In this document: positions 7,036 to 64,000 of the stretch, piece by piece
Numbering within the stretch: position 1 is the stretch's first letter
Layout: each line of letters starts with the position of its first letter
Assembly: GCF_000497125.1 (NCBI RefSeq)
Contig: NC_090597.1
Coordinates: 569,797 to 633,796, forward strand
DNA: 64,000 bases
Source: Spironucleus salmonicida
Taxonomy: Eukaryota
Reading direction: 5' to 3'
Translations under genes and position numbers: made by a program
The notes under the pieces: model-generated
Seen by the model: only the letters and a program-made list of their open reading frames with translations
Databases searched by the model: none
What the model was told of the DNA's origin: nothing

Positions 7036-10000
7036 TCACTTAACGAAAACAACAGCGAACAGACATACGACCAAAAATCCACATGCTACTTTTAACGTCA
7101 CTAGCTGCTCTTAAACTTTTTCGCTAGACAATCTGAGCTCAGAATTCTCATTTTCTAACTCGTCCCTTTTCAAAATAAGCTCTAAGTTTGCATTCTTCAG
7201 CAGCTAGCTTTTACCTTCTAAATTTCGTTAGTGCATAGACGCATGCAATGAGGAATGGAAAACTGAATTTGAATTGATATTGGTGTTTTAATCCTCACCA
7301 ATTGACATTTAAAGTTATGAGTTTTACTCTTTCAACTGCAAAAGTTGATTTTTAAGATATCTAATTTCGTCTAAAAGTGACGAATTTACTGCCTAGTAGT
7401 CATTTTGAACCTGCTAATCCTTCAAATCGTAAATTTATTTCGATTATTCTGCCGCCAAAACTTCTAGCCTAGCAACATTTTGACACTTTCTCTCAAGTTA
7501 TAAAATATATTCTGTAAGTTGTAAAATTTTACTTTCAAAAATTTCTATTTATTCATTTTGAATTTGAATTTTTGCTCCTTGATTTTATTTAATTTCAAGC
7601 AAATCTTGATTTTACAAATTCAAATCTTCCAAATCTCTGTTCAATTGAAGTTCTCTCTCTGCATGCAATTTAATGAAATTTTGAACATGCTAAAGTTATC
7701 TTTGTTGTTCTTCCAGGAACATTTAAAGGCGCGAGTCTGTTTGTGATGCAATAAGCGTTTGGGAATGCATTATTGACTATGCGAGCTGTTCATTAATTTA
7801 GTCGAATTCTAGCATTCTGTCATTGTTTGCAGTTGAAAGAGTCAGTATTTCATTAGATTCGTCGAGTGTTTCTGGTTAGAAATTATCAGGTTCTTGGATT
7901 TAATTTATCCCCTCAAGGTCAAACTCAGCAAGAGTTTCGATGTCATTTTGGTAGTCTTTTATGGGCTAGTTACTTGAGTTCTGCTCGGGTACGTGATCCT
8001 CGGACTTCTGCTCGGGTACGTCAACTTCGGACTTCTGCTCGGGTACGTCAACATCGGACTTCTGCTCGGACTTCTGCTCTGGTACGTCAACTTCGGACTT
8101 CTGCTCGGGTACGTGATCCTCGGACTTCTGCTCGGGTACGTCAACTTCGGACTTCTGCTCGGACTTCTGCTCGGGTACGTCAACTTCGGACTTCTGCTCG
8201 GGTACGTCAACATCGGGCTTCTGCTCGGACTTCTGCTCTGGTACGTCAACTTCGGACTTCTGCTCGGACTTCTGCTCGGGTACGTCAACTTCGGACTTCT
8301 GCTCGGACTTCTGCTCTGGTACGTCAACTTCGGACTTCTGCTCGGGTACGTCAACATCGGGCTTCTGCTCGGACTTCTGCTCTGGTACGTCAACTTCGGA
8401 CTTCTGCTCGGGTACGTGATCCTCGGACTTCTGCTCGGGTACGTCAACTTCGGACTTCTGCTCGGACTTCTGCTCGGGTACGTCAACTTCGGACTTCTGC
8501 TCGGACTTCTGCTCTGGTACGTCAACTTCGGACTTCTGCTCGGGTACGTGATCCTCGGACTTCTGCTCGGGTACGTCAACTTCGGGCTTCTGCTCTGGTA
8601 CGTGATCCTCGGACTTCTGCTCGGGTACGTCAACTTCGGACTTCTGCTCGGGTACGTCAACATCGGACTTCTGCTCGGGTACGTGATCCTCGGACTTCTG
8701 CTCGGGTACGTCAACATCGGGCTTCTGCTCGGACTTCTGCTCGGGTACGTCAACTTCGGACTTCTGCTCGGGTACGTGATCCTCGGACTTCTGCTCGGGT
8801 ACGTCAACTTCGGACTTCTGCTCGGACTTCTGCTCGGGTACGTCAACTTCGGACTTCTGCTCGGGTACGTGATCCTCGGACTTCTGCTCGGGTACGTCAA
8901 CATCGGACTTCTGCTCGGGTACGTCAACATCGGACTTCTGCTCGGGTACTTCCTCCTCGGACTTCTGCTCTGGTACGTCAACATCGGACTTCTGCTCCGG
9001 TACGTCATCCTCGGACTTCTGCTCTGGTACGTCAACTTCGGACTTCTGCTCTGGTACTTCCTCCTCGGACTTCTGCTCTGGTACGTCATCCTCGGACTTC
9101 TGCTCGGGTACGTCATCCTCGGACTTCTGCTCGGACTTCTGCTCGGGTACGTCAACTTCGGACTTCTGCTCGGGTACGTCAACTTCGGACTTCTGCTCGG
9201 GTACGTGATCCTCGGACTTCTGCTCTGGTACGTCAACTTCGGACTTCTGCTCGGACTTCTGCTCGGGTACGTCAACTTCGGACTTCTGCTCGGGTACGTG
9301 ATCCTCGGACTTCTGCTCTGGTACGTCAACTTCGGACTTCTGCTCGGACTTCTGCTCTGGTACGTCAACTTCGGACTTCTGCTCTGGTACGTCAACTTCG
9401 GACTTCTGCTCGGGTACGTGATCCTCGGACTTCTGCTCGGGTACGTCAACATCGGACTTCTGCTCCGGTACGTCATCCTCGGACTTCTGCTCTGGTACGT
9501 CAACTTCGGACTTCTGCTCTGGTACTTCCTCCTCGGACTTCTGCTCTGGTACGTCATCCTCGGACTTCTGCTCGGGTACGTCATCCTCGGACTTCTGCTC
9601 TGGTACGTCAACATCGGACTTCTGCTCTGGTACGTCATCCTCGGACTTCTGCTCGGACTTCTGCTCGGGTACGTGATCCTCGGACTTCTGCTCGGGTACG
9701 TGATCCTCGGACTTCTGCTCGGGTACGTCATCCTCGGACTTCTGCTCGGGTACGTCAACTTCGGACTTCTGCTCGGGTACGTGATCCTCGGACTTCTGCT
9801 CTGGTACGTCAACTTCGGACTTCTGCTCGGGTACGTGATCCTCGGACTTCTGCTCTGGTACGTCAACTTCGGACTTCTGCTCGGGTACGTCAACATCGGA
9901 CTTCTGCTCGGGTACGTCATCCTCGGACTTCTGCTCCGGTACGTCAACTTCGGACTTCTGCTCTGGTACGTCATCCTCGGACTTCTGCTCTGGTACGTCA

Positions 10001-10515
10001 TCCTCGGACTTCTGCTCGGATACTTGCTCCTCATCATGATTTTCATTAATAATATCTTCTTAATAATATTAGTCTTAATTTAAGACTTGATTTGAATCTT
10101 AAATTATGTTAGCCTAGACATCAGTATTTATGAAATTTTCTATCTCTAATTTTTACATTTTAGTATCAATAAGATCGCTAAGATCGTTAGTATTATGAGA
10201 CTATTATAGTCGTTTAGAATGTTAGGCAATGTCATCTGAGTCAATTGTTTCATCATTAGGGTCTTTTTAAAGAGGAGATCCAAAATCTATAAAATTAAGA
10301 TTGTTACTTTAATTTATTTCTTCTCCCATCTAATTTTCTGAACCAAGTTGAACATTTACTGTAGTATCATCAGAGTTTTCAGCCGGAGTTTGTTCAATAG
10401 GTTCAGTAGTGATATCGTCTGTTAATACAACTTACTATTTTATATCTTCTGCTGGCTATTCCTCGTTAATTTAACTAACGGTATAATCCTAATCGTCACT
10501 TCCAAAGTCTGACAT
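7036..10515 (-). CDS. 1159-aa acidic tandem-repeat, coiled-coil, C-terminally anchored protein (golgin-like architecture)
   Basis: Absent from the ORF track. With TAR=Gln one frame runs from ATG 10515 (MSDFGSDDQDY...) through (EQKSEDDVP/EQKSEVDVP/EQKSEDHVP)n and a Q/E/L-rich heptad region to TLKVACGFLVVCLFAVVFVK-TGA; 3480 nt. Confidence 0.85.
7979..10020. repeat. coding minisatellite: 27-bp units interspersed with 12-bp subunits (GGACTTCTGCTC)
   Basis: Units such as GGACTTCTGCTCGGGTACGTCAACTTC with variants ...GTGATCCTC, ...GTCATCCTC, ...GTCAACATC; all unit lengths are multiples of 3. Confidence 0.97.
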
Positions 10516-10646
10516 TTTAGTTGGTATTAATATTATTATAATATATGCATAAATATTTTATTTATATTAAAATTTACATTATATGTTTATAAATTATATA
10601 ATAAAATTAATATCAAAATTTAATAATCGATTAATTTACATCACTT

Positions 10647-15088: not shown

Positions 15089-16321
15089 TCATTAAATCCC
15101 GTGGAAATCTCTTACGACGGTAGGGGCCTTCACAGACATCTTGCGGACTAGGAACACAACGAGCACTACAATTACAGCTAACAGGATGGCAATTGCTATT
15201 GAGCAGCCAATAACAGCAGAGTTTGAGGCCTTAACAAGAGAAAGCTAGCACTGGTCATCATTGCAAACATAACCTTACTCACAAGGCTTGTTATTTGAGC
15301 CGCAAACACACAAAGAACCGTCTTTGTAGATGCTCAAGCCTTCAACACATTAGAGGCATAAGTTTGGCTGTGAAGGGTTGCAAGTATTGCAACCAAAAAT
15401 AGTCAAGCATGAAAAATTTGCAACACACTAGAGTTTGGTTGGAGATATAGTGTAGCCAGTATCACACGCATAACAAAGGCGACCATCGCTCCTATAACAG
15501 CTTCTGCAAGACGAAATCATCACGGGATACGTAAGACAAGCATTTTTCTAAGCACAAATATGAGTGTAAGGGGTACATTAATATCCTGATTAACAGGGAA
15601 GATTGCTACCAAGAGCACATTCACAAACAGTTTTCGCTATATTTAAAATAAGTCCATCAGAGCACTTAGCACATTTGGTGTTGTCGGTCTCGTCACAAGC
15701 ATTACAAGAGGTAAGTGTAGAACAAGTTGAAGTAGATTGGCACGCCCCAGCTTTGGTAAGGTAGAAACCTGAGGCACATGCATAGCAATTTTAGTGATTG
15801 TTATAATCACAGATTTTACAATTATTTATTGTTGACAAACAAGAATTATTAGTCTGGCAAGTCCTGGTTAAAGCTGAGCAGGTTGAACCACTAGGACATT
15901 CAGCTCTACTTTCAGCCACACATTCACAGATCATGCCATCAGATGATGGGTTAAGGTTAGATTAACAAATTCCACATTATGCAGGAGTAATATCACTGCA
16001 AGCTTTACATTTTCTGATTCTTTGACAAGGCTTAAGGCTGATGCAGGCTTTTTCAGTTAAAGAAGGATAATATCCTTCAGCACACTTATAACATTCTGAG
16101 TGGTTGAAATATTTGCATGCAATACAATGAAGAGTACTGAGACATTCGTTAAGTGGTACGCACTTTTTAATCTCTGTTGCACAGCTTTAATTTAAAGGAC
16201 AAACAGTACCAGTGTTATGTTCGCATTCACATTAATTAGTCGTGGTGTTAAGATTTAAGAAGAAAGCACATTTAGTGCATTTATTATCTGCACTGTATTC
16301 TAAACAGTTGGCGATGGACAT
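15089..16321 (-). CDS. cysteine-rich membrane protein (CXXC-rich, VSP/CRMP-like), 410 aa
   Basis: MSIANCLEYSADNKCTKC..., many CXXC, TM AVIGCSIAIAILLAVIVVLVVFLV then RKMSVKAPTVVRDFHGIQ-TGA; 1233 nt with TAR=Gln. Confidence 0.85.
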
Positions 16322-43431: not shown

Positions 43432-44976
43432 TCATTATTTAGTTTACCCATACATTGCAGCTGATTCAACAATTTAGTACTATATGTTTTACTTATTAGT
43501 TGTCGCATCATCATTCTTTTAAACGAAATTAGATTTTTTCTTCATTAAAACAGCATAGACTACTCCACCAATAATAACACCAACTAGAGATACTATGCCA
43601 ACAGCAATTCCGATTATAGAGCCGCTGCTCATCTTATTTATTAATGGCAGACAGGCTCCGTCTACAAGAGATGCTTTATTTTTGCATTAGGTGCAGGAAA
43701 TTTCGCTATCACAGGCCAGGCAATAATCTGGGCATTATTGACATCTATTACCTATAATTTATGACTGGCAGAAAGATCCTGATGCACAACGGAACATTTC
43801 ATTACAGAAATCCTAGACACACTTTCTATCCGAATTAAAGCGTGCGTGACCAAAGCATTCAGTGCAGGTGTCTTTGTCAGAGCAAACCTTGCATAAATCA
43901 GGGCACTAAATGCATACATTCCCAGAGTCCAGTTTCTCGCACTGCTGGCCGTCAGGACAGCCCCTTATACTCGTGCATTAATCCTTTACACACTAATCAT
44001 CATTGGTGAATCTATATCCATCCAAACAAGCATCACATGTATCAGCTGCCGAGCATTGCTAGCAATTTTGAGAACATTTTAGGCAGCGATTATCCTATTT
44101 CAAGTAGCCAGTTGAGCATCTAGTGCAAACCTCTAAGTTCTTGCAGCTATCGCACCCTTCCATACAGTTAACGCAAGTTGAACCAATATTATTAGCATCA
44201 CAGAACTAGTTAGGTCTGCAGGGGTTTTTAGAGTTGCATTCGCTCGGAACGCACTCCCCGCCAACCAGATCGTGGTGGTCCTTACAGAGGCCACATACAT
44301 CCTTCGACGAACATGCGCGGCAGTTGGCCTTACAGAACGTGCACGTATTAGCCATCTTATCAAGTAAATAGCTATCTTTGCAAATTTAGCATTCTTAGTA
44401 GCTGGAGCATTTTTTGCAGTTTACCGGGCAAGGCTGACATACATCATCTATTGCTCTGTAACCCTCTATACACTCAAAGCATTTATCATCTTCACAGTTT
44501 ATACAGTTTTCTGGGCATTTCTGGCACACTTTATTTATAAAATTATAGTCAGGTAAGCATCGGCTACAGGACCATTTACTAGTGCATTGACCGCAACCTG
44601 GTGAACAGGGATAACAATTATGGTATCTATCTTTAAAAAATCCAGGGTTGCAATCTTTGCATACCCACTATCCACTGCAGATATTGCAGTCCTGCACGCA
44701 TTTAACACACTAACCGTCTTTAACTATGTATCCTGGGATACAGTTGGAGCATCTTTGGCTGCCACAATTTTCGCAGTTAGCTGTGCACGGCTTGCACGCA
44801 TTATTCTCTAAGTAGTACCCAGATCGGCATGCTTAACATTTGCCCCGTGAAGACGCCTAGCACCTCTTGCAGTTGAATATTTCGCATGCTTGACAAATTT
44901 ATGGCTTTAATTTATCAGTGGTTGGGCAAACAGTGCCTTCTGGGCAGGTTTTTGTAGGGCAGATGTACGAGTCCAT
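43432..44976 (-). CDS. cysteine-rich membrane protein (furin/EGF-like CXXC repeats), 514 aa
   Basis: Read fully in frame from MDSYICPTKTCPEG to MSSGSIIGIAVGIVSLVGVIIGGVVYAVLMKKK...GQTKQ-TGA; 1545 nt. Confidence 0.9.
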
Positions 44977-45599
44977 TTAATAAATCCTAGAAACGGCATA
45001 TATATTTATATATACGAATTAATATAAATGATATTATTTGCTTACTTATGTTTACTTATAATCACTAGTATTGTGCGAAAGTAAAAATGATAGCTTTTAA
45101 AGTTTATATATTTATATCTAAATAGTAGTATTTCATTTTTTTTCTTTTATTGATTATATAATATTTATATGAATATAAAAATAAAACTAGATTCTCAAGA
45201 TATTAAATTACAATAAAAAGTTTCATGTAATGAAATTTTTACGCATACCATAAATTATTATTTTATATTAAAAAATATATTAAATAGATCATATTTAAAT
45301 TATATTGAAATTATTTATCAATATAGATTGTATTGGACCTATATATTATCAACATACATCTTCAGTTACAAATCATTGTTTCTATACATTTACCATATAC
45401 CATAATTTCGCATATTTTATTTTCAAATTTAGTTTCCGCTGTATACTTTTTTAAATAGTAAAGGCGTTTCAGCTGATTAGATATAAACTTGTATCAATGT
45501 ATATAACACTAAAACTGATAAAATAGCAGCAAAAGCTACAACTGTTCCACCCGCAGTGGAAGGCCTGGGATTTCAGCGCGAATACTTGAATCATCATGT

Positions 45600-49330: not shown

Positions 49331-50834
49331 ATATTTTATTTTATACCATTATACTATTTTATGTTTTAAATTTTAAATTTATTTTATTTGTTATTTAAGG
49401 AAATAAGTATTATGGAAACTAGGATTATCTTTTATTAAAGATATATGGTTAACTATCAGTTATCGTACTTTCATTTTAATAATTATATTTTTGTTATATT
49501 GTTTTGGCTCTTATTCAATTTATTTGTATAGCTTTTATCGTATGTCACGCGTTTCTAAATATTATAGGTTCATCATTGGTATGAAAAATGAATCAAACAC
49601 ATAAAACTCAATATTGAATTTAAAACTTGATACCCTTGAATTGTTTTTCATGTTGCAGGCCATTTAAACACCATCCTATAGGCGTTCATATTTATCACGA
49701 CCCGCTGTCGCATAAAGGCACTTTTAAATGCACTTTTTGAGTATAAGAAAGCAGCATTATAAAATAATTTTAAAATTATTCAAAATCTAAATTACTGTAG
49801 CAGCAAAAGTCGCAAATGAAAAATGAAAAGTGATGGGGTAGATTTTGGGTTTGTTAAAATAAATTGTTCATAATTGGTTTTTGAAACTGGGATCGATTAT
49901 CGCCTTTTTGCTTCTCTCTGTGTCGTTTTCTACTATGCTGTTGGACGGTTTCAGCTATTAATTAAAAGTTATAACTATTTGTTAATTATTATTATACAAT
50001 ATGTTAAATAATAATTATGAAAATCGTAAAATTGAATATGAGTATTTAGATGTATTATGTAATTATTTTGTGTGATCTGTACAAGATTATTTATGATAAG
50101 TTATTTTCTTATGGCGACTAATGCTGAAAATTCAATGTAAAGCCAAAGCCTAGTTTATTTGTATAAAATTTATTGGAATAAGCAAATTACATCAAAGTTT
50201 AACTCAAATCAGCGAGAAATAAATTTTGTGTACATTTAACTTCTGATAATATGTAAAATTTATATCTTCAGCAATTTATTTTTATTAATGTATATAATAT
50301 AGTTATTTATAAATTGTTGGAAAATTGCATCTTTTAACCCATTCTATTGAGCATTGTTATTGAATGTGAGTAAAACTATAACCAAGCACCATAAAGTATC
50401 CAATCAACATATATTCAATTAGTTTATTATTTAAAATACACCTAAATATATTATAATAAATAAACTAAGTATAACTAATTGTTAAATTATTGTATGTATA
50501 TAATAATTACAAAACTGAACGACAAATTATATTTTCTAAAGTTAACATTACTTATATTTGTAAATTAACAATTAATTAAATAAAAACTCTGTTAACCTGA
50601 AATAGATTATTACATAGATGTAGGATGCTTTATAAAGTTTCAGTAATAATTAAGTATTTGTAAATGTAACAATTTATATTAATATAATCTATGTTTGCAT
50701 GAGTATATCAAATTCGTGTTTTAATAATTAAGTACTACTACTATAAATTAATATAATTGTTTTTCAAAAACTAAAACCCTTACCATCATTTACATCAACT
50801 TTAATATAATATTCCGAAGATCTATTTTCAGAAA

Positions 50835-52574
50835 ATGACAGACACGGGTACATGCTCAAATGCCGTCTTCAACTGCAAGGCTGGAAACTACTGCCCTACA
50901 AATAGTTCAACTGTCGTAAATTGTCTGTCATGCTCTGAAGATATGATATATGGCTAAAGTTGTTACTGCGAAGACAGCAAACCCATATACAACTGCCAAG
51001 AATGTGCGGGCAATCGCTGCTCTAAATGCCTGTCTTAGACATTTTTATAAAATGATAGATGCCTAGACTGTCCTCCTTACTGCGATACCTGTGCAGACAC
51101 AAATTCTTGCATTACGTGCACCGAAGGTTACGAAAAGAATCCATAGACCGGTATTTGTGAATTATTCTGTAAAAGTGAAGATGAATGTCTGAGCATCGGA
51201 GAAGAGTTTGGGGAACCTGCTACATCAATGGCTTAAACTTGCATTCCAAATTGCTTAGTATGCTTTACAACCACAACTTGCGAGTTCTGCAATCCTAGTG
51301 GGTTTATCAGTACACTAACAGGGCAATGCACTAGCAAATGCGTAAATATTTAAAACGGAAATTACTGTGACAACGGTACTGCAAAGCCTTGCGATGAAAA
51401 TCTGACAACAGAATGCAAATGTGGCCGTGCGGACTTTTGTGCTTCTTGTAATCAAGCTGGTACCTAGTGTAAAAAGTGTTTGCCGCATATGAAATTTAAC
51501 AAAACTGGCGAATGTGACGGTTGTGAGGACGGATTTGCTCTCGAAATCAGCTAGTGCATACCCTGCACAGACGAAAACTGCAATGTTTGCCCATCTAAAA
51601 AAAATATCTGTACAGCGTGCAAAAATAACTTTATGGTGTAAAACGGCAAATGCGAAAAGCAATGCACCACCATTGCCAACTGCACAGCCAGCCAAATTTG
51701 TGACAAAATCTGCAAAACCTGCACAGGCAACTGTGCCACGTGCAAGGACGCCGTCGACACCTGTATGACCTGCAAATCTGGATTTATCTTGGAAAACTAA
51801 AAATGTGCAGCCTGTCCCAGCGACTGCGCGAACTGCGACGGCGATAAAAATGATTGTAAAATTTGTAAAGAAGGCTTTTTCGCCAAAGATAAAATCTGCA
51901 ATACTTGTGATGGAAACACGACCGAAAAGTGCAAGTGCGGGAATGCAGCAAATTGTGCTACCTGCGATTCTTCTGAGATAGGAAAGTGCGGAAACTGCAT
52001 CACTGACTATAAAAAGGCTGACGACGGTACCTGTTCCGCCTGCGCCGACGGCTATTTGATGGTCGAAATGGCCTGCAAGAAATGTTAGTAAACGTGTGCC
52101 ACGTGCTCCTAAAGCATCGTAAAGTGTACCAGCTGCATCGATTCGCACACCATGAGCATCAATTAGACGTGCGAGAAAAATTGCACGGGTGAACTTGAGG
52201 ATGGAAATGTGTGCACGGCAGAAGTGATTGTGGAGTGCGGTGGAAATGATCAGATAACTGCATGTAAATGTAAAGATGCTGCAAACTGCCTCAAATGTCA
52301 TAGTTCGGATAATAAAAAATGTGAATCCTGTATGACAGGCTACAAATTTGTGAATTAACAGTGCGACAGCTGCATAGACGGGTACACTGCTGTTGGAAAG
52401 TTGTGCTTCCCATAGGACGATACGCTCAGTACCAACCTTTCTGGCGGAGCCGTTGCAGGCATTGTTATCGCAGTTCTGATCGTGGTTGGAGGAGTTGCTG
52501 GTGGCGCTTTCTGGTACATGAAGAAGTCCAAAGTTAATTAGGAAATAGAGAAGTAGAATTTTAGCAGGTAGTGA
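50835..52574 (+). CDS. cysteine-rich membrane protein (CRMP), 579 aa
   Basis: MTDTGTCSNAVFNCKAGNYCPT..., CXXC repeats, [33 protein letters not shown]...RQ-TGA; 1740 nt. Confidence 0.9.
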
Positions 52575-55188
52575 TAATTTACTTGGTATCAGGGTTTATG
52601 GCCAGTAAGGTGGAGATTCGAGTGGAAAGTATTCTATCGTTTCAATACGAGGGAGCATCATCTATGGTAAATTGAACTCTCCATTAATTCTTTCAGCAAA
52701 GGTAACATCTTCTACATTAAATTAATCATAGTCAATTACTTATTCATTGACTAAAGCATTTGAGTCTAATTAATTAATTTTAGTAATTATATCATACAAC
52801 TATCTATTTCTTTCCTATGAGATGATTCATTAAGCCCTATCGTTTACATTGTTGATCATCTCATTGTACTTTTATGTTTTAGTTTTTAATAATTTAATCT
52901 ATTAGTTTTTATATACAGATGAGATTTATTTTTCTAGTATTAGTGGTATTTATTTATTGTTCTACTTTATTTAATCTTTTAAAATAGATATATGTTTGTA
53001 ATCTTTTTAATATTTATTCTCTTAACCTATTTTAATTTTATCTGATTGTTATTACGATCTGATCTTTCTAATCTTACTAATATCTTGTTTCAATAGTTTA
53101 GTTTAAGAATCATTTAAATCATCCTTTGATATTTCAAATAGCTTATTTTTCAATAACTTAATATGATGAAGCTATAACTTATATTGTTATTATTTTTAGT
53201 AGTACTCTTAAAGAGATATCTCTCTTGAAGTATTGTTATATAACTTGCTACAATTTTTGTAGAATACATTTGATGTTTAATTATACAAGCGTTGTGTGGT
53301 TGTGTTCTATTTTACATAAACATAAAAAATGGTTTTCAAAATTACTATTTTATGTATTTACTTTCTTGAATGTGACATCTTAATTATGCGCTATAAAGAA
53401 TGAAGTCAAATTTGATCTTGAGAAGTTATCCCATGTTGTTGAGCTTGTTGACATCTTACTCTATGAGCTTATCTGATTAAAAACACATCTAGTTTGTCTC
53501 ATAGGATGCTTAATTCGAATTCTGACCTAACGCTACCCGGCCCTCCTACAATCTCTAGAACGATCGCTTTCCACCCTGACCGGTTGAAATGTTATTTTGT
53601 TAAGTTATTCTGTTTCTATTTTATAATTTAATCTCTATGTTTGTTGATCATTTATTAGTCAAATTTGCCTTTGATCGTATTCATATAATGGAGTAGTAAA
53701 TAATACATTCTAAAAGTATGGTTCAGTCGGCTTCGGTTAAAAAACGGCAAGTCATGGTTATGATCACAACAAGGTCATAAAAAATTACTTTGACGGTTTT
53801 AAACTAGAGACTACGGGTTCATGCTGTTAGTACTAGTTACTTAATTCTATAATAATAAATTATTGAAAAATTAAATCTTAATAATAGAAACTAGCTTATT
53901 AAAATGAATATAATAATATTTGATGCACGATTATTATATATTACTTAAATTATATATTATAATATATTTTAGTTATGTAATTTATTAATTAAATCTGAAA
54001 TTAAATGGTTTATGATAATGTTTTAATTATTTATTAACCAAGACAAACTATTTTTACAATTATCTAAATTAAAAATAATAGTAATTTCCATTTCCTTAAA
54101 AGGATATTTATTGTAGTGATTTAGCGTGGAATAAATATTGTTGAATGAGGATTATAATAACTAATATTTGTAACGTATTGATATAAATTTTAAATTGTAA
54201 GTTATCAAGATAGTTGCTGTTATGATTTACAAATATTAATATATTAACATTAAAACAGATGAATGTTTGAAATAAATGTTACTGTTTGATAATATTTAAT
54301 GATAATATATATTTGGTATAAGTAATCTCACATAATATATATTCGCTTTAAATATTATAACAAATCTACCATTCATCGAATAAGCTTTGACTGCAAAGCA
54401 TATGCTTAAATTTTAAGTATATGCTTGTAATACTTATATATTTTATTAACATTTATCATCATATAAAATGATTGATTACAAATAAAAATTATTTCAAATA
54501 TAATGAAATCTACGCTTCTAATGAAATTCATATTTGATTATAAACATCTTAAATTATAGTTAAAACCTAAACAGCATACATACCTCGATTCAATAGAGAA
54601 CTAAATTGTAAATTTAAAAAACTTTACATTATTAAATTTAAATATTAAAATATATCTGTATACACATAATAATCGTATGATATCTTGATTCTATTATCGG
54701 TTTAGGTATAAATATTGCTTTTAATAATAAATATTGTTATTATATTTTATATATATTTATATAAAATAACTTATTATTAAAAATCTCTATAGAGAAATAA
54801 TAATATAATAAACATAATAAATAAATAAAAATATAAAATAATAGTTATATTTATATATTTAATACATAATATTATTACATAATATTGATAACAACTCATG
54901 ATTAATAATAAATTAAAAAATAAAATATATGACGAGCATTATTGTAATAAAATATATTTATTACTTATAATTTTACGTATTATTTGACTTTTAAAAAATA
55001 TAAAAATTAACAGTATATGAAGTTATCATCGATATAAATCAAGAACTACTTTTTACTGTTTTTATGATTTTATATTATTAATTTTAGAGTAGTTAATCCA
55101 AGTTAACCGTCTATCATAAAAAGCGAAACTATTTAATCCTAATTATTTATGAATTAAAGCACTTATCGTAAAATTCCATTAACTAAAA

Positions 55189-57039
55189 ATGTCCGGAACC
55201 TGTACTGATAGCTAAAATAGTTGCACATCTGGATATTATTGCCCAACAGGAACTACTACTTCTGAAAAAGTCTGCATTAAGTGCACTGACGGTTGCCTTA
55301 CTTGCTCAGGTACCACCTTAGAAGACACTGTGTGCGCCACTTGCGCAGAAGGTCAGTTTGTTGATGGAAAAAAATGTTCATCATGTGACTCCAAATGTAA
55401 AGTCTGTATCACTACTGCAACCACCTGTTCTGTCTGCCAAAACGATAACTTTTTAGAGAATAATACATGCAAAACATGTACTGCCAATCAGTTGAAGCCC
55501 TGCGTGTGCACAGCCGCCGTTAATTGCACCACCTGCGCCAGCGATAAGACGAAGTGTGCCACCTGCAACGGAAACTACAACCCAGCTGCTGACACGCCCT
55601 GCTCGACCTGTAAAACCGGCTTTTTTGAGAGCACCACCGCTCCAAAAACCTGTACAGCATGCCCTGCCACCTGCCTCACCTGCACTTCTGCCACCGAATG
55701 CCAGACCTGCGCCAATGGCTACGTTTTGGCCGGTTCCACTTGCGCTCCTTGCGAAATTGCTCAGATGAAGCCCTGTGTATGCACAGTCGCCGCTAACTGC
55801 GCCACCTGCGCCACCGACAACACTAAATGCGCCACCTGCAACGGAAACTACAACCCAGCTGCTGACATACCCTGCTCGACCTGCAAGCCAACATTTTTCG
55901 AGGATACGACGACGAACCCAAAAACCTGCTAAGCATGCTCAGCTAACTGCATAACCTGCTCGTCTGGCACCATCTGCAGTGCTTGCGATTCTGGCTTCGT
56001 CGTTGATGCTAACAAGTGCGAGAAGTGCACAGACTTGAACTGCACAACCTGCTTGAATGGAAAGGACGTCTGCACCACCTGTGAAGCTGGATTTACTGTT
56101 ACAGACAGTAAATGCGTCAAAAACTGCTCAGAAGATTCCGAATGCGCCTCTTCTGAAATTTGTCAAACGATCTGCAAAACCTGCACTAATAACTGCGCTA
56201 CCTGCGAGAATATGCTTAACGAGTGCAAAAGCTGCCTTCCAGGCTTCATTTTGGAAGGAACTGCATGCGCGTAATGCGGCGATAACTGCGCCAATTGTGA
56301 CGGGAATAAAATAGTCTGCCGGTTATGCAAGCCAAACTTTTTCCTCAAGGATGGTGCTTGTACGACCTGCGTCGATAACACCATAGAACAGTGCGAGTGC
56401 AATGAAGCCGTAAACTGCGCAACCTGTGAGACCGCGGACACGAAAAAATGCGAAAATTGCCTCACTGGGTACAAGAAGTCAGATTCAGGCTCTTGTGACG
56501 AGTGCTCGGAAGGCTTTTTCATGAGCTAAAAGTTGTGCTCCAAATGCAACGAAGTATGCAAGAGCTGCTCAGGTGACGGGGAAAGGTGCGATACTTGTAC
56601 TACTGGGTATACGATGAGCATAAACCAAATATGCGAAAAAGACTGTACGGATGCTGTTACTAATGGCAACGTTTGCGTTGGGGAGTAAGTAGTGGCGTGT
56701 GGGAGTGATAGTTAGACCGTCGCATGCAAATGCGAAAGTGCGCTAAATTGCTTCAAATGCAACGGGACTGATAGCACAAAATGTGAGTCCTGTATGCCAG
56801 GATACAAGCTTGCGGAAGATGTCTGCACTGGGTGCACTGAGGGAGCTGAAGTTGTTGGTGCGTTCTGCTTTATCTCTGGTAATAAGTCTAAAAATAACCT
56901 TTCTGGTGGAGCTATTGCCGGCATTGTAATTGCAGTTTTAATTGTTGCTGGTGCGATAGGCGGCGGGGTATTCTGGTTTATGAGGCAGAAAAAGAAGGCA
57001 TCGGTGTGTGTTGAAGGGTCTGCTGGAATACAGGAATGA
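55189..57039 (+). CDS. cysteine-rich membrane protein (CRMP), 616 aa
   Basis: ORFs at 55330, 56035 and 56794 share a frame from ATG 55189; [34 protein letters not shown]; internal duplication with 273-bp offset. Confidence 0.92.
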
Positions 57040-57499
57040 GATATTTAATTAGTAGCGTTTAAAATGGAAGAAGGTTGGTCCTACTGGTACTAAAATTAAT
57101 TAGATTAGAATTATTTACCTGTGGCCATGCAATTTGTGAATGGCCCCGCTGCAGATGGGAGACTTCCCATCAAAAGGCACAAGAAATTGATTCATAGCAG
57201 GGGATGTTAAGTAGAAAATTGTTTACTATATTGTGAACATTATCAGCTTAGGCGTGTTAAAAAATTGGTTTTAAAGTTAAAACATTGTTGTACATTTCTC
57301 TCAAATAGATTTTAAATTTTTATTTAATCTTTAAATAAACATAGCATCGCTGTAATCACACTTACTCTACCATAAATTTAATAATATTTCTTAATTACAT
57401 AATTAAATAAATATCATCCTTAACTGGATATAGATTTACATAACTAAAATTTCGTTAATAAATTTAGAAGAATCTTTATATTATATCTTGTTAAATACA

Positions 57500-59130
57500 A
57501 TGAACAAGCTATTCTAAATTAACATTATATTCTATCTAACAACAGTAAATATAAACTCTCAATCGAAGATATATACAAACTCTATTCCATCTTAAAGTTG
57601 AGTCGGTGCAACCAGAAATACGGATAATGCAGCATACAGCAAGTACTAATAAAGATATGCTCTTATTTTTGCAAGCAACAGCGTCATCTGACTAACCCGC
57701 TTTATTCGCAGCTTGTCTCGCCATTTATTTTAAAACTATATATTGGATACTATATGTAAAATAATAGCATTTTTAGAATAGAAGCGTTTTAAAATTCTTA
57801 ATACTAGGATATTGTCCATATCTACTAGACACTAGTATGACATAGTAGAGTACTGTATACAGGTAGGTAAAAGATAATAGTCAAATTTTTATGCCAGCTG
57901 GTGTGTACTTAGTATAGCAGTTAAGCTTTATCGTGTTGCCTGTAATGATTTAGCTCACGATATCCAGTGACATTTTACTTATTCATAGTATAGAGTATAA
58001 ATTTCGAAGAACAAAACATGCAAATACTGCAAAAATAGGTATGAACGGTCCTTAAGCCCCCTAGGCTATATGACAACTTTCTTGGTTCTAACAATAACCA
58101 TCATTAGCAAAAGATGGTTGAATGCGAATATTTCCATCACAAGTTATCACCTTGCGGGGGCATCTAGCTCACAAAAAATAAAAACTAACCTGCCAAGCCT
58201 AAAACGCTGGAAAACATTCCAAGAAAAACTTCACAGTTCGCCATATGCCCACAAAAACACTCCACACAAAACACCATTTCAACACTGATAACAAAAACAC
58301 AACTGCTCATCTCTCGGTCCCCATTTTCACGGAACGCCCTTCACGGCTATTTACCTGCCAATTAAATATACTTACCCCATCTACACCTAAAAGCACATCC
58401 AGCGATGCCTTATCGATGCCATTGCCACCTGAAGCATATCCCATTAACTACATTTGCAGAGTCATGCGCAATTTCTTACCGCGTTCCGAGGTCTGGTCGC
58501 ACTGACTGAAGCAAAGCTGATAACCAGGAAAATTATCAAAACGCCCAATCAGTATCATATACATAACACCTGCAAAACCTCCACCCTGCGGTATCATGTC
58601 AAAAACCTGAAGTGAAATCATTGAAACGTACGCAGACGAAATACCAGCGGTCAAATGCTGTCCACGTCGCATTAGAAGCTGCCGGAACCGACGGCAACCA
58701 AAATGACACCAATGGAACCAAATTTTAATCTGCAAAAACACAAATTCGGATAATCCTGCAACTATTGCTTATTCGAGATACTCTTGCATATACTGTGGTA
58801 CAGTCAGTATTGGATCACTTTTCAGCGAATTCCACGCCAAGCTATTTATTTTGTCAGTATAGCTATATTTATATCTGTTCAGGTAGGCCATACAGCTGGT
58901 GCGACAAATATAGGATAGTTATGGAACTTCGTTAATATGTGGTCTCAGTGAAATAGCATATTTTTGGATGGGTGTGGTGGGATTCTTGTGTGGAAGAAGT
59001 GGATGCAGCAAAAATATTATTATGTTGGTGCAAATAATCGCAGTAGCGGCTCTATAAGTTTGCTAACTTCTTCCAATTGATGAAAGAATGCACATATTAG
59101 AGATGGTGGTGGACTAGTAATGACAGAATG
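57500..59130 (+). pseudogene. highly degenerate coding-like region, possibly a decayed Cys-rich membrane protein
   Basis: Raised GC, fragments such as HNTCKT and SCNYC, and a hydrophobic/basic stretch (GCGGILVWKKW) near 58970-59010; no continuous frame. Confidence 0.3.
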
Positions 59131-60538
59131 GAAGCTATATGCTAATTTTATATACTTATTATTTCATATTCGTTTAATACCCCAGTATGAATTAAATTAG
59201 TCCTAAACTATCATGTGTAGTGCGTAATTAGTATTAGAATATCTGCAAATATTCTGCTTTGCGTTAGACATAGACTGAAAACGTGTTAGCAAGATGGAGG
59301 ATTATCCCAAGCGGTTACATGCGCATCCCATAGACTAATATAGCTAGAAGATGCAGTAAATATTATCATCACTTGATGGTGGTATATGGCTCCTACTAAT
59401 TTTCATCAAAATTTAATAATAATCTCGTCATACAACATATTGGTATATAGTATACCAGGTATCAAAGAATAATATTTTAAAATATTTTAGTGCTAATATA
59501 CAGTCTAAAATGGGATTACAGTATCATCCAGTCACACAAAGGGTTCCACAGAAGAATAAACTGTAACTCCTTCGGGTGGAGCTATTAAAGAGTGGATAAT
59601 AAATGCAATTAACTGATAAGATATAGCCTATTTTGGAACGGATAGTTTAAAAATCAATGGTAAATATCAAGTATTTTACCAAAATTATGACTATTGGTAC
59701 ACATCTTAATAGTTAATCGTAAGGAATGAAGATCCAACGAAAGTACTATGTATCCACCAACCGAAGCATTTAACATAACTAACATTACAAAAACTTGTCG
59801 TTTACCATTAAAGAGTAGATAAATTATATACGAAATATGTTGCGTGATGAGAATAAAATAAAAATAAAATTATATAAATCTACATAAATACAAATTAATA
59901 ATTAGAATATCTGTATAATATTGTTACAAAGTGCTTAGTTTTCGCTACGGTATGGATTTTATAAAAGTAAAATATTTAGAGGCAAATGGCCATACTGCAG
60001 TAAAAACTTACTGGTTTAAAGCCCTAAAAATACTCTAAACCTAACATCGCGTGAATAAGTTGGCTAGAACCATTTTAACCACTATGAAATGGTAAAACTG
60101 AATATAAGGATATCTTATTCCCTTTTACACCTAATAATCGCATTTATTTACTATTTTATCAGAATTTTAAACCTCAGAATTTTACCACTCAGCCCCAAGT
60201 AATATTTTTACTACAAGACCATTTAACATTTAACGACTCATGAACCCTTTTAGGGCTGTTACAACAATTTTTCAAATTAAAGCCTGCAAAATACCATTTT
60301 CACCCTCCATACTAACTCTCAAGCAGCACAATTGAGGCCACATTCTCACCGATTCCTCAAGAGTTTCTACCCTACCCTAAACTAAATTTTGCATGACAAT
60401 ATCATGTGAATACTGCAATCGTGCGTTCCACATTAGCAGTTCTGCGTATTTCCTGGCAACCAGCGCTCAAACGGTCAAAGAATCATGCAATTGTTGAAAC
60501 AGCTCAGTTAAGGCTTTTTGATTGCGCAAAAACGTATT

Positions 60539-60781
60539 TCATGCTTTTGTGCAGGAACGAGATATGTTTTTTGCGGGTTTTTATGGTTATTATGGTTATA
60601 CTTTTTTAGTCTCTTGCAATGTTTCTGGTTATGGTAAATATTTTGTAAATCTGTTTGTCATGTATAATACCTTTCCTAATTTATCTTTAGTTTGATCTTT
60701 TAGACCTAATGTATTAATAACTAGATGTCTTCCGTCTGTTGAGATATCTGCTCCTTTGTTAATTTAATCTGCAATGTTCAT
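60539..60781 (-). CDS. small ORF downstream of PolB, 80 aa (MNIADQINKGADISTDGRHLVINTLG...)
   Basis: ATG after a T-run/TATTAAA tract; open to TGA at 60539; no homology recognised. Confidence 0.35.
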
Positions 60782-61588
60782 TTTAATAATTAAAAAAAAT
60801 TGATTTTTCGTAAGTCACTTAAATCTTGCTTATAACATTTAACATGTGGTCAATGAAGTTTATTAAATCGGGTTGTTCCTTTATTTGTTAATGTGAATCT
60901 GCAACTGATTCTAATATTGGTTTTTTAACGATTTGCTCTCTTTTGAGTTGTTATTAACTTTCAAATTTTTAAAGAATTAATATTTAAATTATTTTTAACT
61001 ATTTTATAATTCTGTTAGTGTATCAATACTTTGGATTTTTGATTATTAAATTACCTATTTATTTTCATTCTTATCTCAAACATTTTTGTTTATGTTTCTT
61101 TTAATTACATATATTACTTAATTAATATTTCTTATTTTTATACGTATGGTTATATTTCTCTTTATTATGTTTTATTTCATCTATACATTCATAATTCTTC
61201 TTTAATTTCCTTATTTTTATATTTGTGTTATCTGAATTAACTGAATTATTTTATTTATTTTTTGTATCAATTGAATTAATTGAATTCGATGCCATTCAAT
61301 TTTATTAATACAAAAAAATACTTTGATAATTTCTCATAACAGAATAGTTTTAGTACTAAACGCCCTAGTGTTGATCTCTTCCGATGAATCATATATTCTT
61401 TCATTAATACTAATAAATCTTATGCGTTTAAGTTATCTCTCGCCACGATATCTGCTATATATTTTAAATCTGCTCTCAAGATCTTATGCTCATCGTTATA
61501 GAATTATATATTATTTTTTATATTACTTAACCAAAAGTTAACTTTCCCATTTTACTATATTAAATAAATATAACTCTGGAAATATCAA

Positions 61589-64000
61589 TCATTCTTTTAC
61601 ATATCCAAATGATAATGTAGCTATTTCATTCAGTGTTGAATTAAAATCAATACATCGTTTCTATGAGTCCATCTTGATCGATTTATATGTTGTGTTTGTA
61701 TATATGCTACAATCCTTCTAATCTCTTATGAAGTTTATTTCTTGCTTTACTTTTACTTATACCGTCTGATCGTTGGGTATTATGGATTACTATTTTTATC
61801 TATATTGATCTTATCAAATAACACGTGCATGTATACTTCAAATAAATGCTTTTATGATTGATCTTCCAATGTCATGATTCCTTACTTGTCAACTGTGATA
61901 CCCTTTGATGTATGAGCACATCTGATTCCGTCTTTATACGAATATACTTATTCCCCTAGGCATACCCATAACTCTGGGTCCAGCTTCTTTTCGTATTTGC
62001 AAGAGTACGTATTCTTGAATGTGACAGATATCAAATTTGGATACATTCCTCTATCCAGTATACAATAGATTGAATCTGTATCTCCATATAAAACCAATTC
62101 TTTCAATTCATCGTTTATATGTCTCATTAATGTGTATAACAGTGTTCTTTATACGGATGTTATCGCTCCTGCGAATGATGCGTTTGATTAAGACCTTTAT
62201 GTTTGTTGCAACTGTTCTTCATAATTAAATGTATTCTTAAATATATTTTATCCCACCAGTTAAACTGTGCAATCCTTGTGTAGCTCCTTATGGCACTGTT
62301 CAAATATGAACTCTCCTTAATGAAATTATGTTGTGGGTCTTACCACGTTTTGACCTGTTTTACTATATATTGCATTTAATAACAGCTTATAGAACGATTT
62401 ACCTCCAGGGTTTAACTTTATTGATCTATAATCCTACTATCCTTTCTGTTTTATATATGCTATGCCATTATCATACTTATAATCAAACTTACAATCATTT
62501 GCTAATTGCTTTAGTACAGTTTCATCCTTATAACCATCTTGATCTGAGTGCAATGTCTTGTTGAACATCTATGAATTAATGTAATTATTTCCATCATATT
62601 TCTTATCATTAAAACTTGTTATTTAGTACGTATGTATCTTGCATCTATCCCTGAACGTATAACCTTCGTATAAAGCATTTATCAATTCAATCTCATGCCA
62701 AAACCCATAAAGATATCTTTATTCGAGGTTGTGCTTACATTTATAATGATTGTTAACATTTAAACATTGCTATTCTGCACATGTTCTACATAAAGGAAAT
62801 ATCAACTTGTTACAAATATGACATCCTAACACTGGGAACTTTAAATCCCTTGGTGGTAACATCTAACATTTGATTTATATTACTCGTTACTTCTTATCAC
62901 ATCCAGCTAAGTAGTATTGAAGTCTTTACTCTGCTGTAATCTTCCTTGGTATGCTCCTAACGTATTCAATTAAGTTATCAATATAGGCTTAATCAAGTTT
63001 AAACTTATGTTTTGCTATATCTTTTGAATCAATATTTTTAGTATATGTTGAGCTTTCTGCCTGTGTTCCAACAATTAAATCTCTTAAAGGTAAGTTTCCA
63101 AATACCATGCCTGAAGGGTAAAGCGATGTGAAGCCAATTCCGTACAGCTTTTCGTTTGGTCTATCTATTTCTCTACAATGAGTGTAGCATTCAGTTCTTA
63201 CTCCTGCTAATATCGATCTATTGCTTATGTTGTATTATGGAGGCATCTCTATCTTGATATCATTGTCTTATTCAAATTTAATAAACTCAACGTCTGTTAC
63301 ATGAAATATGTCCTCAAATGCTCCTTCATTCATTCTATCTTTTAAGCGTAAATCTTTTGTTTGATGTTGCCTCTTCCGTTCTTTCATTACTTTATAATAC
63401 TTATATGTTTGTCTTAATTCCTTAAACCTATGGTAGAACACTCCATTCAATTCTAAGCCAAACTTCTTAGTTATGCGATCTATTATACCATGGGATACTA
63501 TATCGATATTGTATTTTGTATCTAAGATCCTTTGATTTATAGTACCTTTGTTATCTTGGTAAAGTTGGTTCCTAAAAGTTTATTTAGCATTTCACTATTA
63601 TTCAAAGTTAGATATGATACGCGATACTCGTATTTCGATTTGTTATGTATTAGATCTTAATAACCTATTTATATCTTTATATTGCAGTGGTGTGTGAATA
63701 GGTTCATTGGCATTGCTGATGCTGTTAAATAGTTGAGGATGTTGACACCCTATTCCTTTAGTGATACTTCTACCCATTTCACAAGAGCTTTGCTTAAAAT
63801 GAGCTATCTTGAATACAATAATTAATATACTAATCAATGAAGTCTAAGTGATCATAGTCGTTAGCATATTAATTGAACTCATCCAAGCTTAACTTATCAA
63901 AATATTTGTGCTATAGAATGCCTTCTTTTACTAATTCACTTATTGATTTAAGACTCCCTCCGTTTTAAATATACAAATCAAATATCTCTTTTGTTAAGAA
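61589..64000 (-). pseudogene. protein-primed family B DNA polymerase (Polinton/Maverick type), 5'-truncated by the window edge, frameshifted
   Basis: With TAR=Gln: ExoIII YCIQD (~63810), GVNILNYLTAS, ELNGVFYH, AGVRTE, motif A GIGFTSLYPS (63135), KCQMLPPRDLKFPVL...KLIFPLCRTCAE (62790), motif B KLLLNAIYSKTGQ (~62380), motif C LYGDTDSIY (62071-62088), KGIT, C-terminal KR...TLSFGY. Frameshifts near 63800, 63550 and 61770. Confidence 0.92.

What the first reader, a model, noticed from the sequence alone, without database searches (positions are those of the whole stretch)
61589..64000. Endogenous Polinton/Maverick-type protein-primed DNA polymerase written in the host's TAR=Gln code
Seen: the minus strand encodes ordered PolB motifs (YCIQD, AGVRTE, FTSLYP, KLLLNAIYSKTGQ, YGDTDS, KGIT, TLSFGY) and the LPP...PVL...KLIFPLCRTCAE...C-x-H...GFW..IEL..A...GY block. 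Established: that Cys block is characteristic of protein-primed PolBs of Polintons/Mavericks and adintoviruses, not cellular Pol alpha/delta/epsilon. The frame contains many in-frame TAA/TAG and ends GAA-TGA like host genes. Inference: a self-synthesising transposon or DNA virus lineage adapted to the diplomonad code and replicated in this host for a long time. It is almost invisible to standard-code ORF calling. I cannot confirm from the sequence whether it is already described.
Basis: partly seen in the sequence, partly recalled or inferred. Interest (0 to 1): 0.9.

Follow-up and report, generated by a model that had tools for sequence, protein, structure and literature searches.

The report
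Decayed Polinton-type DNA polymerase gene, diplomonad
The end of this window holds a broken, inactive copy of a virus-like transposon's protein-primed DNA polymerase gene, written in the host's TAA/TAG=glutamine code; it is a real genomic fossil, but of a kind already reported in related protists.

Summary
The minus strand of 61589-64000 encodes about 800 codons of a family-B polymerase, from Exo III to the C-terminus, with every listed motif at the stated place. The main frame has 635 codons, 28 TAA/TAG and no TGA. The other five frames have 10-25 TGA, and 0 of 5000 shuffles are TGA-free.

The closest proteins are Spironucleus salmonicida entries (97%, 79%, 55% identity). The family profile and an AlphaFold model both hit phi29 polymerase first, so it is the protein-primed class.

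It is not an intact gene. It runs through three frames. Motif A has Gly for the catalytic Asp, motif B and KxY are altered, and every S. salmonicida protein found is a fragment.

It belongs to a diplomonad-only clade with Hexamita inflata and two environmental sequences. One of these is a 404-codon stretch, open only under TAR=Gln, with intact motifs.

No integrase, capsid or terminal repeats were found in the window, so "Polinton" rests on the polymerase alone. The same code adaptation is published for Streblomastix (PMC10120064). Verdict: a new member of a known kind, of modest interest.

The parts
63806..64000 (-). Upstream piece of the polymerase relic, in the frame that starts at 64000. 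It holds the Exo III region ...LDFIDQYINYCIQD (YCxxD at 63820-63806). The gene's N-terminus (Exo I, Exo II) would lie beyond the window end.
   Evidence: translation and coordinates. P0129 residues 3-59 align to 63979-63809 in frame -1, 56% identity; aligned YC..DV in relatives.
63540..63803 (-). Second piece, in a different frame: LILSKALVKW..GVNILNYLTASAMPMNLF..MLNKLLGTNFTKITKVL. Frameshifts relative to the contiguous copy P0129 lie at about 63806 and about 63538.
   Evidence: P0129 residues 62-158 align to 63803-63522 in frame -3. P0001 1-17 and P0002 1-58 in frame -3, then frame -2; contigs 63322-63709 (0 differences, 0 gaps) and 63680-64000 (0 gaps) carry the same frame structure.
61633..63537 (-). 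Main frame of the relic: 635 codons, 28 TAR and no TGA. It runs from the VSR-like remnant to beyond the KGIT motif and is closed by TGA at 61632-61630.
   Evidence: 97% identity to P0001 (V6LEG1) and E 2e-17 to 6e-7 to PF03175-bearing proteins.
63271..63459 (-). Degenerate VSR-like endonuclease insert: GLELNGVFYHRF ... FHVTDVEFIKFE. Relatives have (F/L)E(F/L)xGC(F/Y)(W/Y)HGC ... WE(H/C)(E/D)F.
   Evidence: family profile positions 531-610 hit Vsr endonucleases 1odg, 1vsr, 1cw0 at E 6e-5 to 9e-5; motif table; a source names P0042 and P0146 'very short patch repair protein'.
63112..63144 (-). Pol motif A, YGIGFTSLYPS, with Gly in place of the catalytic Asp of DxxSLYP.
   Evidence: Asp is kept in P0003, P0129, P0282, L005 and all animal relatives shown. 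Gly is found in the window, P0001, P0002 and P0127.
62659..62862 (-). Cys block between motifs A and B: MLPPRDLKFPVLG..KLIFPLCRTCAEQQC..C.H..YLYGFWHEIELINALYEGY. It includes a diplomonad-specific QxC(L/K)(N/D)(V/M)xN extension.
   Evidence: P246, P247, L250, P253, L255, C268, C271, C285, W298, E302, G310, Y311 are at least 90% conserved in 63 sequences; it is the best-matching part of the profile (positions 235-420)..
62350..62388 (-). Pol motif B, KLLLNAIYSKTGQ. The consensus is Kx3NSxYGKxGQ; here Ser->Ala and Gly->Ser.
   Evidence: P0003 has TLLLNSTYGKTGQ; L005 has KLMMNSIYGKTGQ.
62071..62088 (-). Pol motif C, YGDTDS, intact.
61936..61959 (-). KxY region, LGEQVYSY. The conserved Lys of GPKxY is replaced by Gln, encoded by TAA.
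61589..61687 (-). C-terminal piece in yet another frame: YKSIKMDSQKRCIDFNSTLNEIATLSFGYVKE-TGA. It carries the conserved terminal T-L-x-(F/Y)-G-Y, and a frameshift lies at about 61690-61730.
   Evidence: relatives end ..TLPYGY or TLPFGY; contig 61325-61815 has 0 gaps.
63592..63594 (-). In-frame TGA that interrupts the upstream continuation of the main frame.

Best explanation
[quoted passage not shown] It is of the type carried by Polinton/Maverick virus-like transposons and sits in a chromosome of Spironucleus salmonicida or a very close relative.

In a live element such a polymerase copies the excised linear element, starting from a terminal protein. Here it is a fossil:
- it runs through three reading frames;
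- the catalytic Asp of motif A is Gly;
- motif B, the KxY lysine and the VSR-like nuclease insert are degraded.

The gene belongs to a lineage found so far only in hexamitine diplomonads (S. salmonicida, Hexamita inflata and two environmental sequences). That lineage evolved under the host code, so TAA/TAG are ordinary Gln codons in it.

Copies that are 79-97% identical share the inactivating Gly. They therefore multiplied after the polymerase was already dead, either by host segmental duplication or by mobilisation in trans (inferred).

Shown: homology, pPolB class, decay, code use, diplomonad clade, multi-copy state. Inferred: that the source element was a Polinton with integrase and capsid genes.
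For: Identity: P0001 (V6LEG1, S. salmonicida) is 97% identical, P0002 79% and P0003 55%. PF03175-bearing proteins match at E 2e-17 to 6e-7.

Class:
- A profile of 63 relatives hits phi29 polymerase at E 1.4e-12, against E >= 4e-4 for cellular PolBs.
- The AlphaFold model of P0001 (pLDDT 67.6) gives phi29 as the only 2 Foldseek hits at E <= 1e-3.
- 34 of 39 aligned relatives match PF03175.

Architecture shared with Polinton polymerases:
- VSR-like insert (source names).
- Cys block.
- PMC10748475 (passages read) describes a VSR insert in integrase-linked Polinton pPolB2 of molluscs and a marine nematode.

Decay:
- Three frames.
- Asp->Gly and other motif losses.
- P0002 and P0003 tails are out of frame.
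- The longest S. salmonicida protein found is 668 aa, against 1000-1650 aa for full-length relatives.
- Short-read contigs match the frameshift sites without gaps.

Code:
- 0 TGA in 635 codons.
- TAR-Gln is conserved in P0003 at 6 of 13 sites, against 5 of 10 for CAR-Gln.
- The TAR share of Gln codons is 0.60, within the host-gene range of 0.07-0.73.
- L005 has 404 codons, 23 TAR and 0 TGA, and 1 of 5000 shuffles is TGA-free.

Clade: 6 diplomonad rows are monophyletic with SH-aLRT 100.

Host context: CLN3, an EF-hand protein, a sugar transporter and cysteine-rich VSP-like genes lie in the same window.
Against: - No other Polinton gene and no inverted repeat was found in the window.
- Pfam does not hit the window protein or any of the 5 S. 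salmonicida proteins directly.
- The tree has no reference Polinton, virophage, adenovirus or plasmid polymerases, and it warns of long branches meeting.
- The read runs may be the data the assembly was made from, so they are not independent proof of the frameshifts.
- The same contigs read CGA, not TGA, at 61632-61630, so at least one stop differs between the window and the reads.
- Small contigs of two runs guessed to be RNA touch the gene, so silence is not shown.
Confidence: 0.8

Rival explanations
1. The polymerase comes from another kind of pPolB-bearing entity, such as a Polinton-like virus without integrase, an adintovirus-like virus or a linear plasmid, whose DNA was captured by the chromosome. 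It would not come from an integrase-bearing Polinton/Maverick.
For: No integrase, capsid, ATPase, protease or TIR was found in 41-64 kb. The IMG/VR relative L001 has no recognisable Polinton neighbours by Pfam. pPolB genes are known to be exchanged between element types (PMC4642659, passage read).
Against: The VSR-insert architecture and the mollusc-type relatives match what PMC10748475 reports for integrase-linked Polintons. The multi-copy chromosomal state on at least three chromosome-size contigs fits an integrating element. L001-L003 lack both the VSR and the Cys block, so they are poor guides to context.
Confidence: 0.13
2. The gene is intact or nearly so, and active or domesticated. The frameshifts and stops would be assembly errors in an AT-rich repeat.
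For: Reads give CGA for the TGA at 61632-61630. P0001, P0002 and P0127 read through the site at about 63538. The 404-codon fragment of the environmental relative L005 is open, with motifs A and B intact. Small contigs of runs guessed to be RNA overlap 61877-62041 and 62450-62604.
Against: The Asp->Gly change in motif A and the motif B and KxY changes are substitutions, not indels. Motif A Gly is shared by the window, P0001, P0002 and P0127; the motif B and KxY changes by the window and P0001. Contigs match the window without gaps across all three frameshift sites. Every annotated copy is a fragment.
Confidence: 0.05
3. It is a recent transfer or contamination from an animal, for example the fish host, whose genomes carry similar polymerases.
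For: The nearest non-diplomonad relatives are from animal genomes: molluscs, Cotesia, Ischnura, Xenopus.
Against: Identity to them is only 21-31%. The diplomonad sequences form their own clade on a long stem, outside all 45 other ingroup rows (those named are animal; most are unnamed database proteins). The frame is open only under TAR=Gln, with host-like Gln codon use. Host genes lie on the same stretch.
Confidence: 0.02

Closest known systems
Polinton/Maverick pPolB2 with a VSR nuclease insertion (marine molluscs and the marine nematode Trissonchulus latispiculum; Mol Biol Evol 2023, PMC10748475, passages read)
   Same: It is a protein-primed PolB with a VSR-like domain. The nearest named non-diplomonad relatives include many molluscs.
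   Different: The window copy is decayed. The diplomonad clade sits outside all sampled animal sequences. It uses TAR=Gln, and linkage to an integrase is not shown. I could not place it against that paper's sequences, because supplements are closed.
Maverick-type endogenous viral elements of Streblomastix strix that use TAA/TAG=Gln (PNAS 2023, PMC10120064, passages read)
   Same: It is a virus-like element in a metamonad that follows the host's TAR=Gln code, which that paper reads as a sign of long association.
   Different: That report rests on capsid genes in an oxymonad. Here it is a polymerase relic in a diplomonad, and no capsid gene was found.
Trichomonas vaginalis and Tritrichomonas foetus Polintons (388 and 259 pPolB2 copies; PMC10748475)
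   Same: Metamonad hosts, with a multi-copy pPolB.
   Different: Those hosts use the standard code and carry hundreds of long copies. S. salmonicida shows only a handful of fragments. Their relationship to this clade was not tested.
Phage phi29 DNA polymerase (PDB 1xhx, 2pzs)
   Same: It is the best solved relative both by profile (E 1.4e-12) and by fold (E 1e-5); the two share Exo and Pol motifs.
   Different: phi29 has no VSR insert and no Cys block. Identity is about 12%.
Tlr elements of Tetrahymena thermophila (Biol Direct 2014, PMC4028283, abstract seen in the listing)
   Same: They are Polinton-related elements resident in a host that, from my own knowledge, also reads TAR as Gln.
   Different: Tlr is a separate family. 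Per the title of PMC5499653 (listing only), it carries a helicase fused to an inactivated polymerase rather than this pPolB.

Membership tests
[quoted passage not shown] | Significant sequence match to the family | tested here: inconclusive
   Pfam finds 0 families for the window protein and for all 5 S. salmonicida proteins. However, phmmer links the window protein to PF03175-bearing proteins at E 2e-17 to 6e-7, and 34 of 39 aligned relatives match PF03175.
[quoted passage not shown] | The closest solved structure is a protein-primed polymerase, not a cellular PolB | tested here: met
   phi29 scores E 1.4e-12 by profile, with the next polymerase at 4.4e-4. phi29 gives the only 2 fold hits at E <= 1e-3. 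Both tests used P0001, 97% identical, as proxy.
[quoted passage not shown] | Exo I, II, III and Pol A, B, C motifs, in order and with catalytic residues | tested here: not met
   Exo III, A, B and C are present in order. Exo I and II lie beyond the window. Motif A Asp is Gly, motif B NSxYG is NAIYS, and the KxY Lys is Gln. This marks a dead member, homologous but not catalytically intact.
[quoted passage not shown] | TPR1 and TPR2 insertions used for protein priming | not tested
   The Cys block lies between motifs A and B, where, from recall, phi29 has TPR1. No structural superposition was made.
Polinton/Maverick element | Retrovirus-like (rve) integrase linked to the pPolB | tested here: inconclusive
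   None appears among 20 table-6 ORFs at 41-61.6 kb. The side beyond 64000 is out of reach, because no genome is held.
Polinton/Maverick element | Double jelly-roll major capsid protein, penton protein, packaging ATPase, adenain-like protease | tested here: inconclusive
   No Pfam hit was found. One sub-threshold Vp24_capsid match (E 0.007, 16 bits against a cut-off of 27) is taken as chance. Pfam covers these proteins poorly.
Polinton/Maverick element | Terminal inverted repeats and a 6-bp target-site duplication | tested here: inconclusive
   There are 0 inverted-repeat pairs in 57000-64000. The other end would lie outside the window.
VSR-bearing subgroup of Polinton pPolB2 (PMC10748475) | VSR endonuclease domain inside the polymerase | tested here: met
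   The family profile hits three Vsr structures at E 6e-5 to 9e-5. The window keeps a degraded version, LELNGVFYHRF. 34 of 53 aligned rows carry the G..[FWY]HG signature.
VSR-bearing subgroup of Polinton pPolB2 (PMC10748475) | Tree placement inside pPolB2 with the mollusc and marine-nematode sequences | not testable with these tools
   The paper's reference sequences are in supplements, which are closed. My tree has only database relatives.

The most novel reading that the evidence does not exclude
Hexamitine diplomonads may carry their own old lineage of VSR-bearing Polinton-type viruses or transposons that reads TAA/TAG as Gln. The lineage may still be alive in free-living Hexamita-like hosts: the environmental contig L005 is open, with intact motifs A and B. 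S. salmonicida would keep only fossils that were later copied by the host.

If so, the VSR insert is not a recent mollusc-nematode novelty but an old and widespread trait. Surveys that presumably use the standard code and long-ORF filters would then systematically miss such elements in hosts with variant codes.
Probability: 0.35. Interest if true: 0.5.

Novelty: new member of a known kind. Interest (0 to 1): 0.33.

Why it matters
- It gives a name and a history to a set of 'hypothetical' and 'DNA-directed DNA polymerase' entries in the S. salmonicida proteome. They are fossils of a virus-like element, not replication genes of the parasite.
- It adds diplomonads to the hosts of VSR-bearing Polinton-type polymerases.
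- It gives a second metamonad case of such an element following a TAR=Gln host code, which is a useful marker of long residence.
- It warns that surveys using the standard code with long-ORF filters will miss these elements.
- It does not change the picture of Polinton biology.

Tried and rejected
Direct searches with nothing found:
- Pfam on the window protein: 0 families at E <= 1.
- phmmer against PDB: 0 hits.

Tools not available:
- No whole genome is held for this window, so nothing beyond 64000 and no other copies' DNA could be read.
I did not use the atlas further.

Collection scans:
- Scans of viral contigs with the diplomonad alignments found no relative.
- The scan with the mixed alignment gave L001-L004. 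L001's five neighbouring ORFs had no informative Pfam hit, so this gave no Polinton context.
- The metagenome scan failed three times for machine reasons. One alignment was too diverse. The scan that ran gave only the 1214-nt contig L005.

Window context:
- Twenty ORFs at 41-61.6 kb gave only VSP-like cysteine-rich proteins and no Polinton gene.
- There are no inverted repeats in 57-64 kb, no copy of 57-64 kb elsewhere in the window, and no tRNA genes.

Expression:
- No RNA holder was listed.
- Two runs guessed to be RNA gave only 155-165-nt contigs at depth about 4 inside the gene.
- I draw no conclusion on expression.

Tree:
- The first tree run did not finish.
- The finished tree used LG+G4 with a quick search on 440 columns.
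- Left out of the tree: the window's own translation (P0001 stands in), the fragments P0127-P0130 and P0133, and the spider protein P0131 (internal repeats).
- P0002 and P0003 were cut to their in-frame parts (430 and 407 residues).

Readings considered and rejected: cellular PolB, recent transfer from an animal, and an intact gene (see rivals).

Literature:
- Spironucleus+Polinton and Spironucleus+Maverick each found 1 unrelated paper.
- diplomonad+Polinton found 2 unrelated papers.
- Spironucleus+protein-primed found 0.
- The S. salmonicida chromosome-scale paper has no occurrence of transpos*, polymerase or virus.
- Supplementary tables of PMC10748475 and PMC10120064 may list diplomonad hits. 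I could not see them.
Full report
**What is there.** Under NCBI table 6, the minus strand of 61589-64000 encodes about 800 codons of a family-B DNA polymerase.
- Exo III, YCIQD, at 63820-63806.
- AGVRTE at 63207-63190.
- Motif A, FTSLYP, at 63132-63115.
- The Cys block, MLPPRDLKFPVLG ... KLIFPLCRTCAEQQC ... YLYGFWHEIELINALYEGY, at 62862-62659.
- Motif B at 62388-62350.
- Motif C, YGDTDS, at 62088-62071.
- KGIT at 61905-61894.
- TLSFGY at 61618-61601, followed by GAA-TGA (TGA at 61591-61589).

The main frame (63537-61633) has 635 codons with 23 TAA, 5 TAG and no TGA. The other five frames hold 10-25 TGA. The expected number is 13.2, and 0 of 5000 shuffles are free of in-frame TGA. This is not chance.

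**Whose it is.** The closest proteins are from Spironucleus salmonicida:
- V6LEG1, labelled 'DNA-directed DNA polymerase' (P0001, 668 aa, 97% identity).
- SS50377_25155 (P0002, 79%).
- SS50377_26223 (P0003, 55%).

An exhaustive profile search added four more S. salmonicida fragments of 141-296 aa, a 197-aa Hexamita inflata protein (E 3e-30) and a 127-aa unnamed one. P0002, P0003 and P0130 lie on three different contigs of 1.67-1.88 Mb. The window also carries ordinary host genes: CLN3, an EF-hand protein, an MFS sugar transporter and several cysteine-rich VSP-like membrane proteins. The nearest of these ends at 57036. Short-read contigs of the same organism cover all 30 bins of 57000-64000. 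They come as many small pieces at 90-99% likeness, with raised depth over 62600-64000, as expected of a repeated sequence.

**What class of polymerase.** Pfam does not hit the window protein or any of the five S. salmonicida proteins. phmmer links the window protein to PF03175-bearing proteins at E 2e-17 to 6e-7, and 34 of 39 aligned relatives match PF03175. A profile of 63 relatives hits phi29 polymerase at E 1.4e-12, while the best cellular or archaeal PolB reaches only 4.4e-4. An AlphaFold model of P0001 (pLDDT 67.6, pTM 0.68) gives phi29 as the only two Foldseek hits at E <= 1e-3. So it is the protein-primed class and not Pol alpha, delta, epsilon or zeta.

**Link to Polintons.**
- The same profile hits three Vsr endonuclease structures at E 6e-5 to 9e-5, between the exonuclease and polymerase parts. 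One source names two relatives 'very short patch repair protein'.
- A VSR insert in the polymerase is published for integrase-linked Polintons of marine molluscs and a marine nematode (PMC10748475, passages read).
- The named relatives here are molluscs, a nemertean, Cotesia, Ischnura, a beetle and Xenopus.
- The Cys block is at least 90% conserved across the 63 sequences.
- Both the block and the VSR are absent from the three IMG/VR polymerases L001-L003.

The element context could not be shown. No integrase, capsid, ATPase or protease gene was found among 20 ORFs at 41-61.6 kb, and no inverted repeats were found. The gene's 5' side lies beyond the window, and no genome is held.

**It is a fossil.**
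- *Frames.* A contiguous S. salmonicida copy (P0129) aligns to the window in three frames: residues 3-59 at 63979-63809, residues 62-158 at 63803-63522 and residues 151-292 at 63537-63100. The conserved C-terminal T-L-x-F-G-Y lies in yet another frame than the main one.
- *Read support for the breaks.* Contigs match the window across all three breaks without gaps. Those runs may be the assembly's own data.
- *Lost residues.* The catalytic Asp of motif A is Gly in the window, P0001, P0002 and P0127. It is kept in P0003, P0129, the two environmental sequences and the animal relatives shown in the motif table. Motif B reads NAIYS for NSxYG. The KxY lysine is Gln, encoded by TAA. The VSR signature DG.[FY][WY]HG reads NGVFYHR.
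- *Fragmentary copies.* The tails of P0002 and P0003 are out of frame. No S. salmonicida protein exceeds 668 aa, against 1000-1650 aa for full-length relatives.
- *Order of events.* Copies 79-97% identical share the inactivating Gly, so they were multiplied after inactivation (inference).
- *One discrepancy.* The contigs read CGA where the window has TGA at 61632-61630, as in P0001.

**Code and age.**
- TAR-encoded Gln is conserved in the 55%-identical copy at 6 of 13 alignable sites, against 5 of 10 for CAR-encoded Gln.
- A TAG sits at the Gln of CAEQQ, which animal relatives share.
- TAR makes up 28 of 47 Gln codons (0.60). Nine host genes of the window range from 0.07 to 0.73.
- A 1214-nt metagenome contig (L005, 25% GC) is open over all 404 codons only under TAR=Gln. 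It has 23 TAR and 0 TGA, against 4-20 TGA in the other frames, and 1 of 5000 shuffles is TGA-free. It keeps GGR, the motif A Asp and motif B NSxYG, with a TAR at the conserved final Gln of motif B.
- In a tree of 53 rows and 440 columns, the six diplomonad rows form one clade (SH-aLRT 100). These are three from S. salmonicida, one from Hexamita and two environmental.
- When rooted on two giant-virus-bin polymerases, that clade sits on a long stem outside all 45 other ingroup rows. The tool warns that long branches meet.

This fits a lineage long resident in hexamitine diplomonads. It argues against recent uptake from an animal.

**Novelty.**
- I found no paper that describes Polintons in Spironucleus.
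- Related facts are in print. Giardia intestinalis appears in a pPolB tree legend (PMC4642659). A PLV polymerase was noted to hit Hexamita proteins (PMC11296320).
- Supplements that might list diplomonads were closed.
- The finding is therefore a new member of a known kind: sound, useful for annotation and of modest interest.

Noticed in passing
window 43435-45132 (-), 50703-52571 (+), 55153-57036 (+), 15089-16321 (-): These are cysteine-rich membrane proteins; three of the four match Pfam VSP (E 1e-13 to 3e-5). 15089-16321 had no Pfam hit at E 0.001 and is called so from its translation only. The polymerase relic sits at the edge of this variable gene cluster.
   Followed up: partly
window 61630-61632: The short-read contigs laid here from two DNA runs read CGA (Arg) where the window has the stop TGA, as in database protein P0001. 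The contigs also differ from the window at many other sites of 61.6-64 kb. Either this is a different copy or isolate, or it is an assembly consensus effect.
   Followed up: partly
window 61272-61325: Short-read contigs break here. Their loose ends run on into unlike sequence on both sides, about 270-320 bp downstream of the polymerase stop. This may be the edge of the repeated unit or of the old element.
   Followed up: no
window 7036-10641 (-): A 1201-codon frame holds dozens of tandem acidic repeats (..SEDDVPEQK / SEVDVPEQK..) in a GC-rich stretch. It has no Pfam match.
   Followed up: no
whole window: G+C swings from 0.23 to 0.62 between 2-kb blocks. The share of TAR among Gln codons falls from about 0.7 in AT-rich genes to 0.07 in GC-rich genes.
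   Followed up: partly
L005:1-1212 (+): This environmental contig (25% GC) encodes an apparently intact stretch of the same polymerase lineage, readable only with TAA/TAG=Gln. It probably comes from a free-living Hexamita-like diplomonad.
   Followed up: partly
protein P0131 (Caerostris extrusa): This spider 'DNA-directed DNA polymerase' holds four tandem copies of the Cys-block segment. That inflated its score in the profile search. It is probably an assembly or annotation artefact.
   Followed up: no
window 59527-60237 (-): There is a sub-threshold Pfam match to Vp24_capsid (E 0.007, 16 bits against a cut-off of 27) in an AT-rich frame with 19 TAR. I take it as chance.
   Followed up: no
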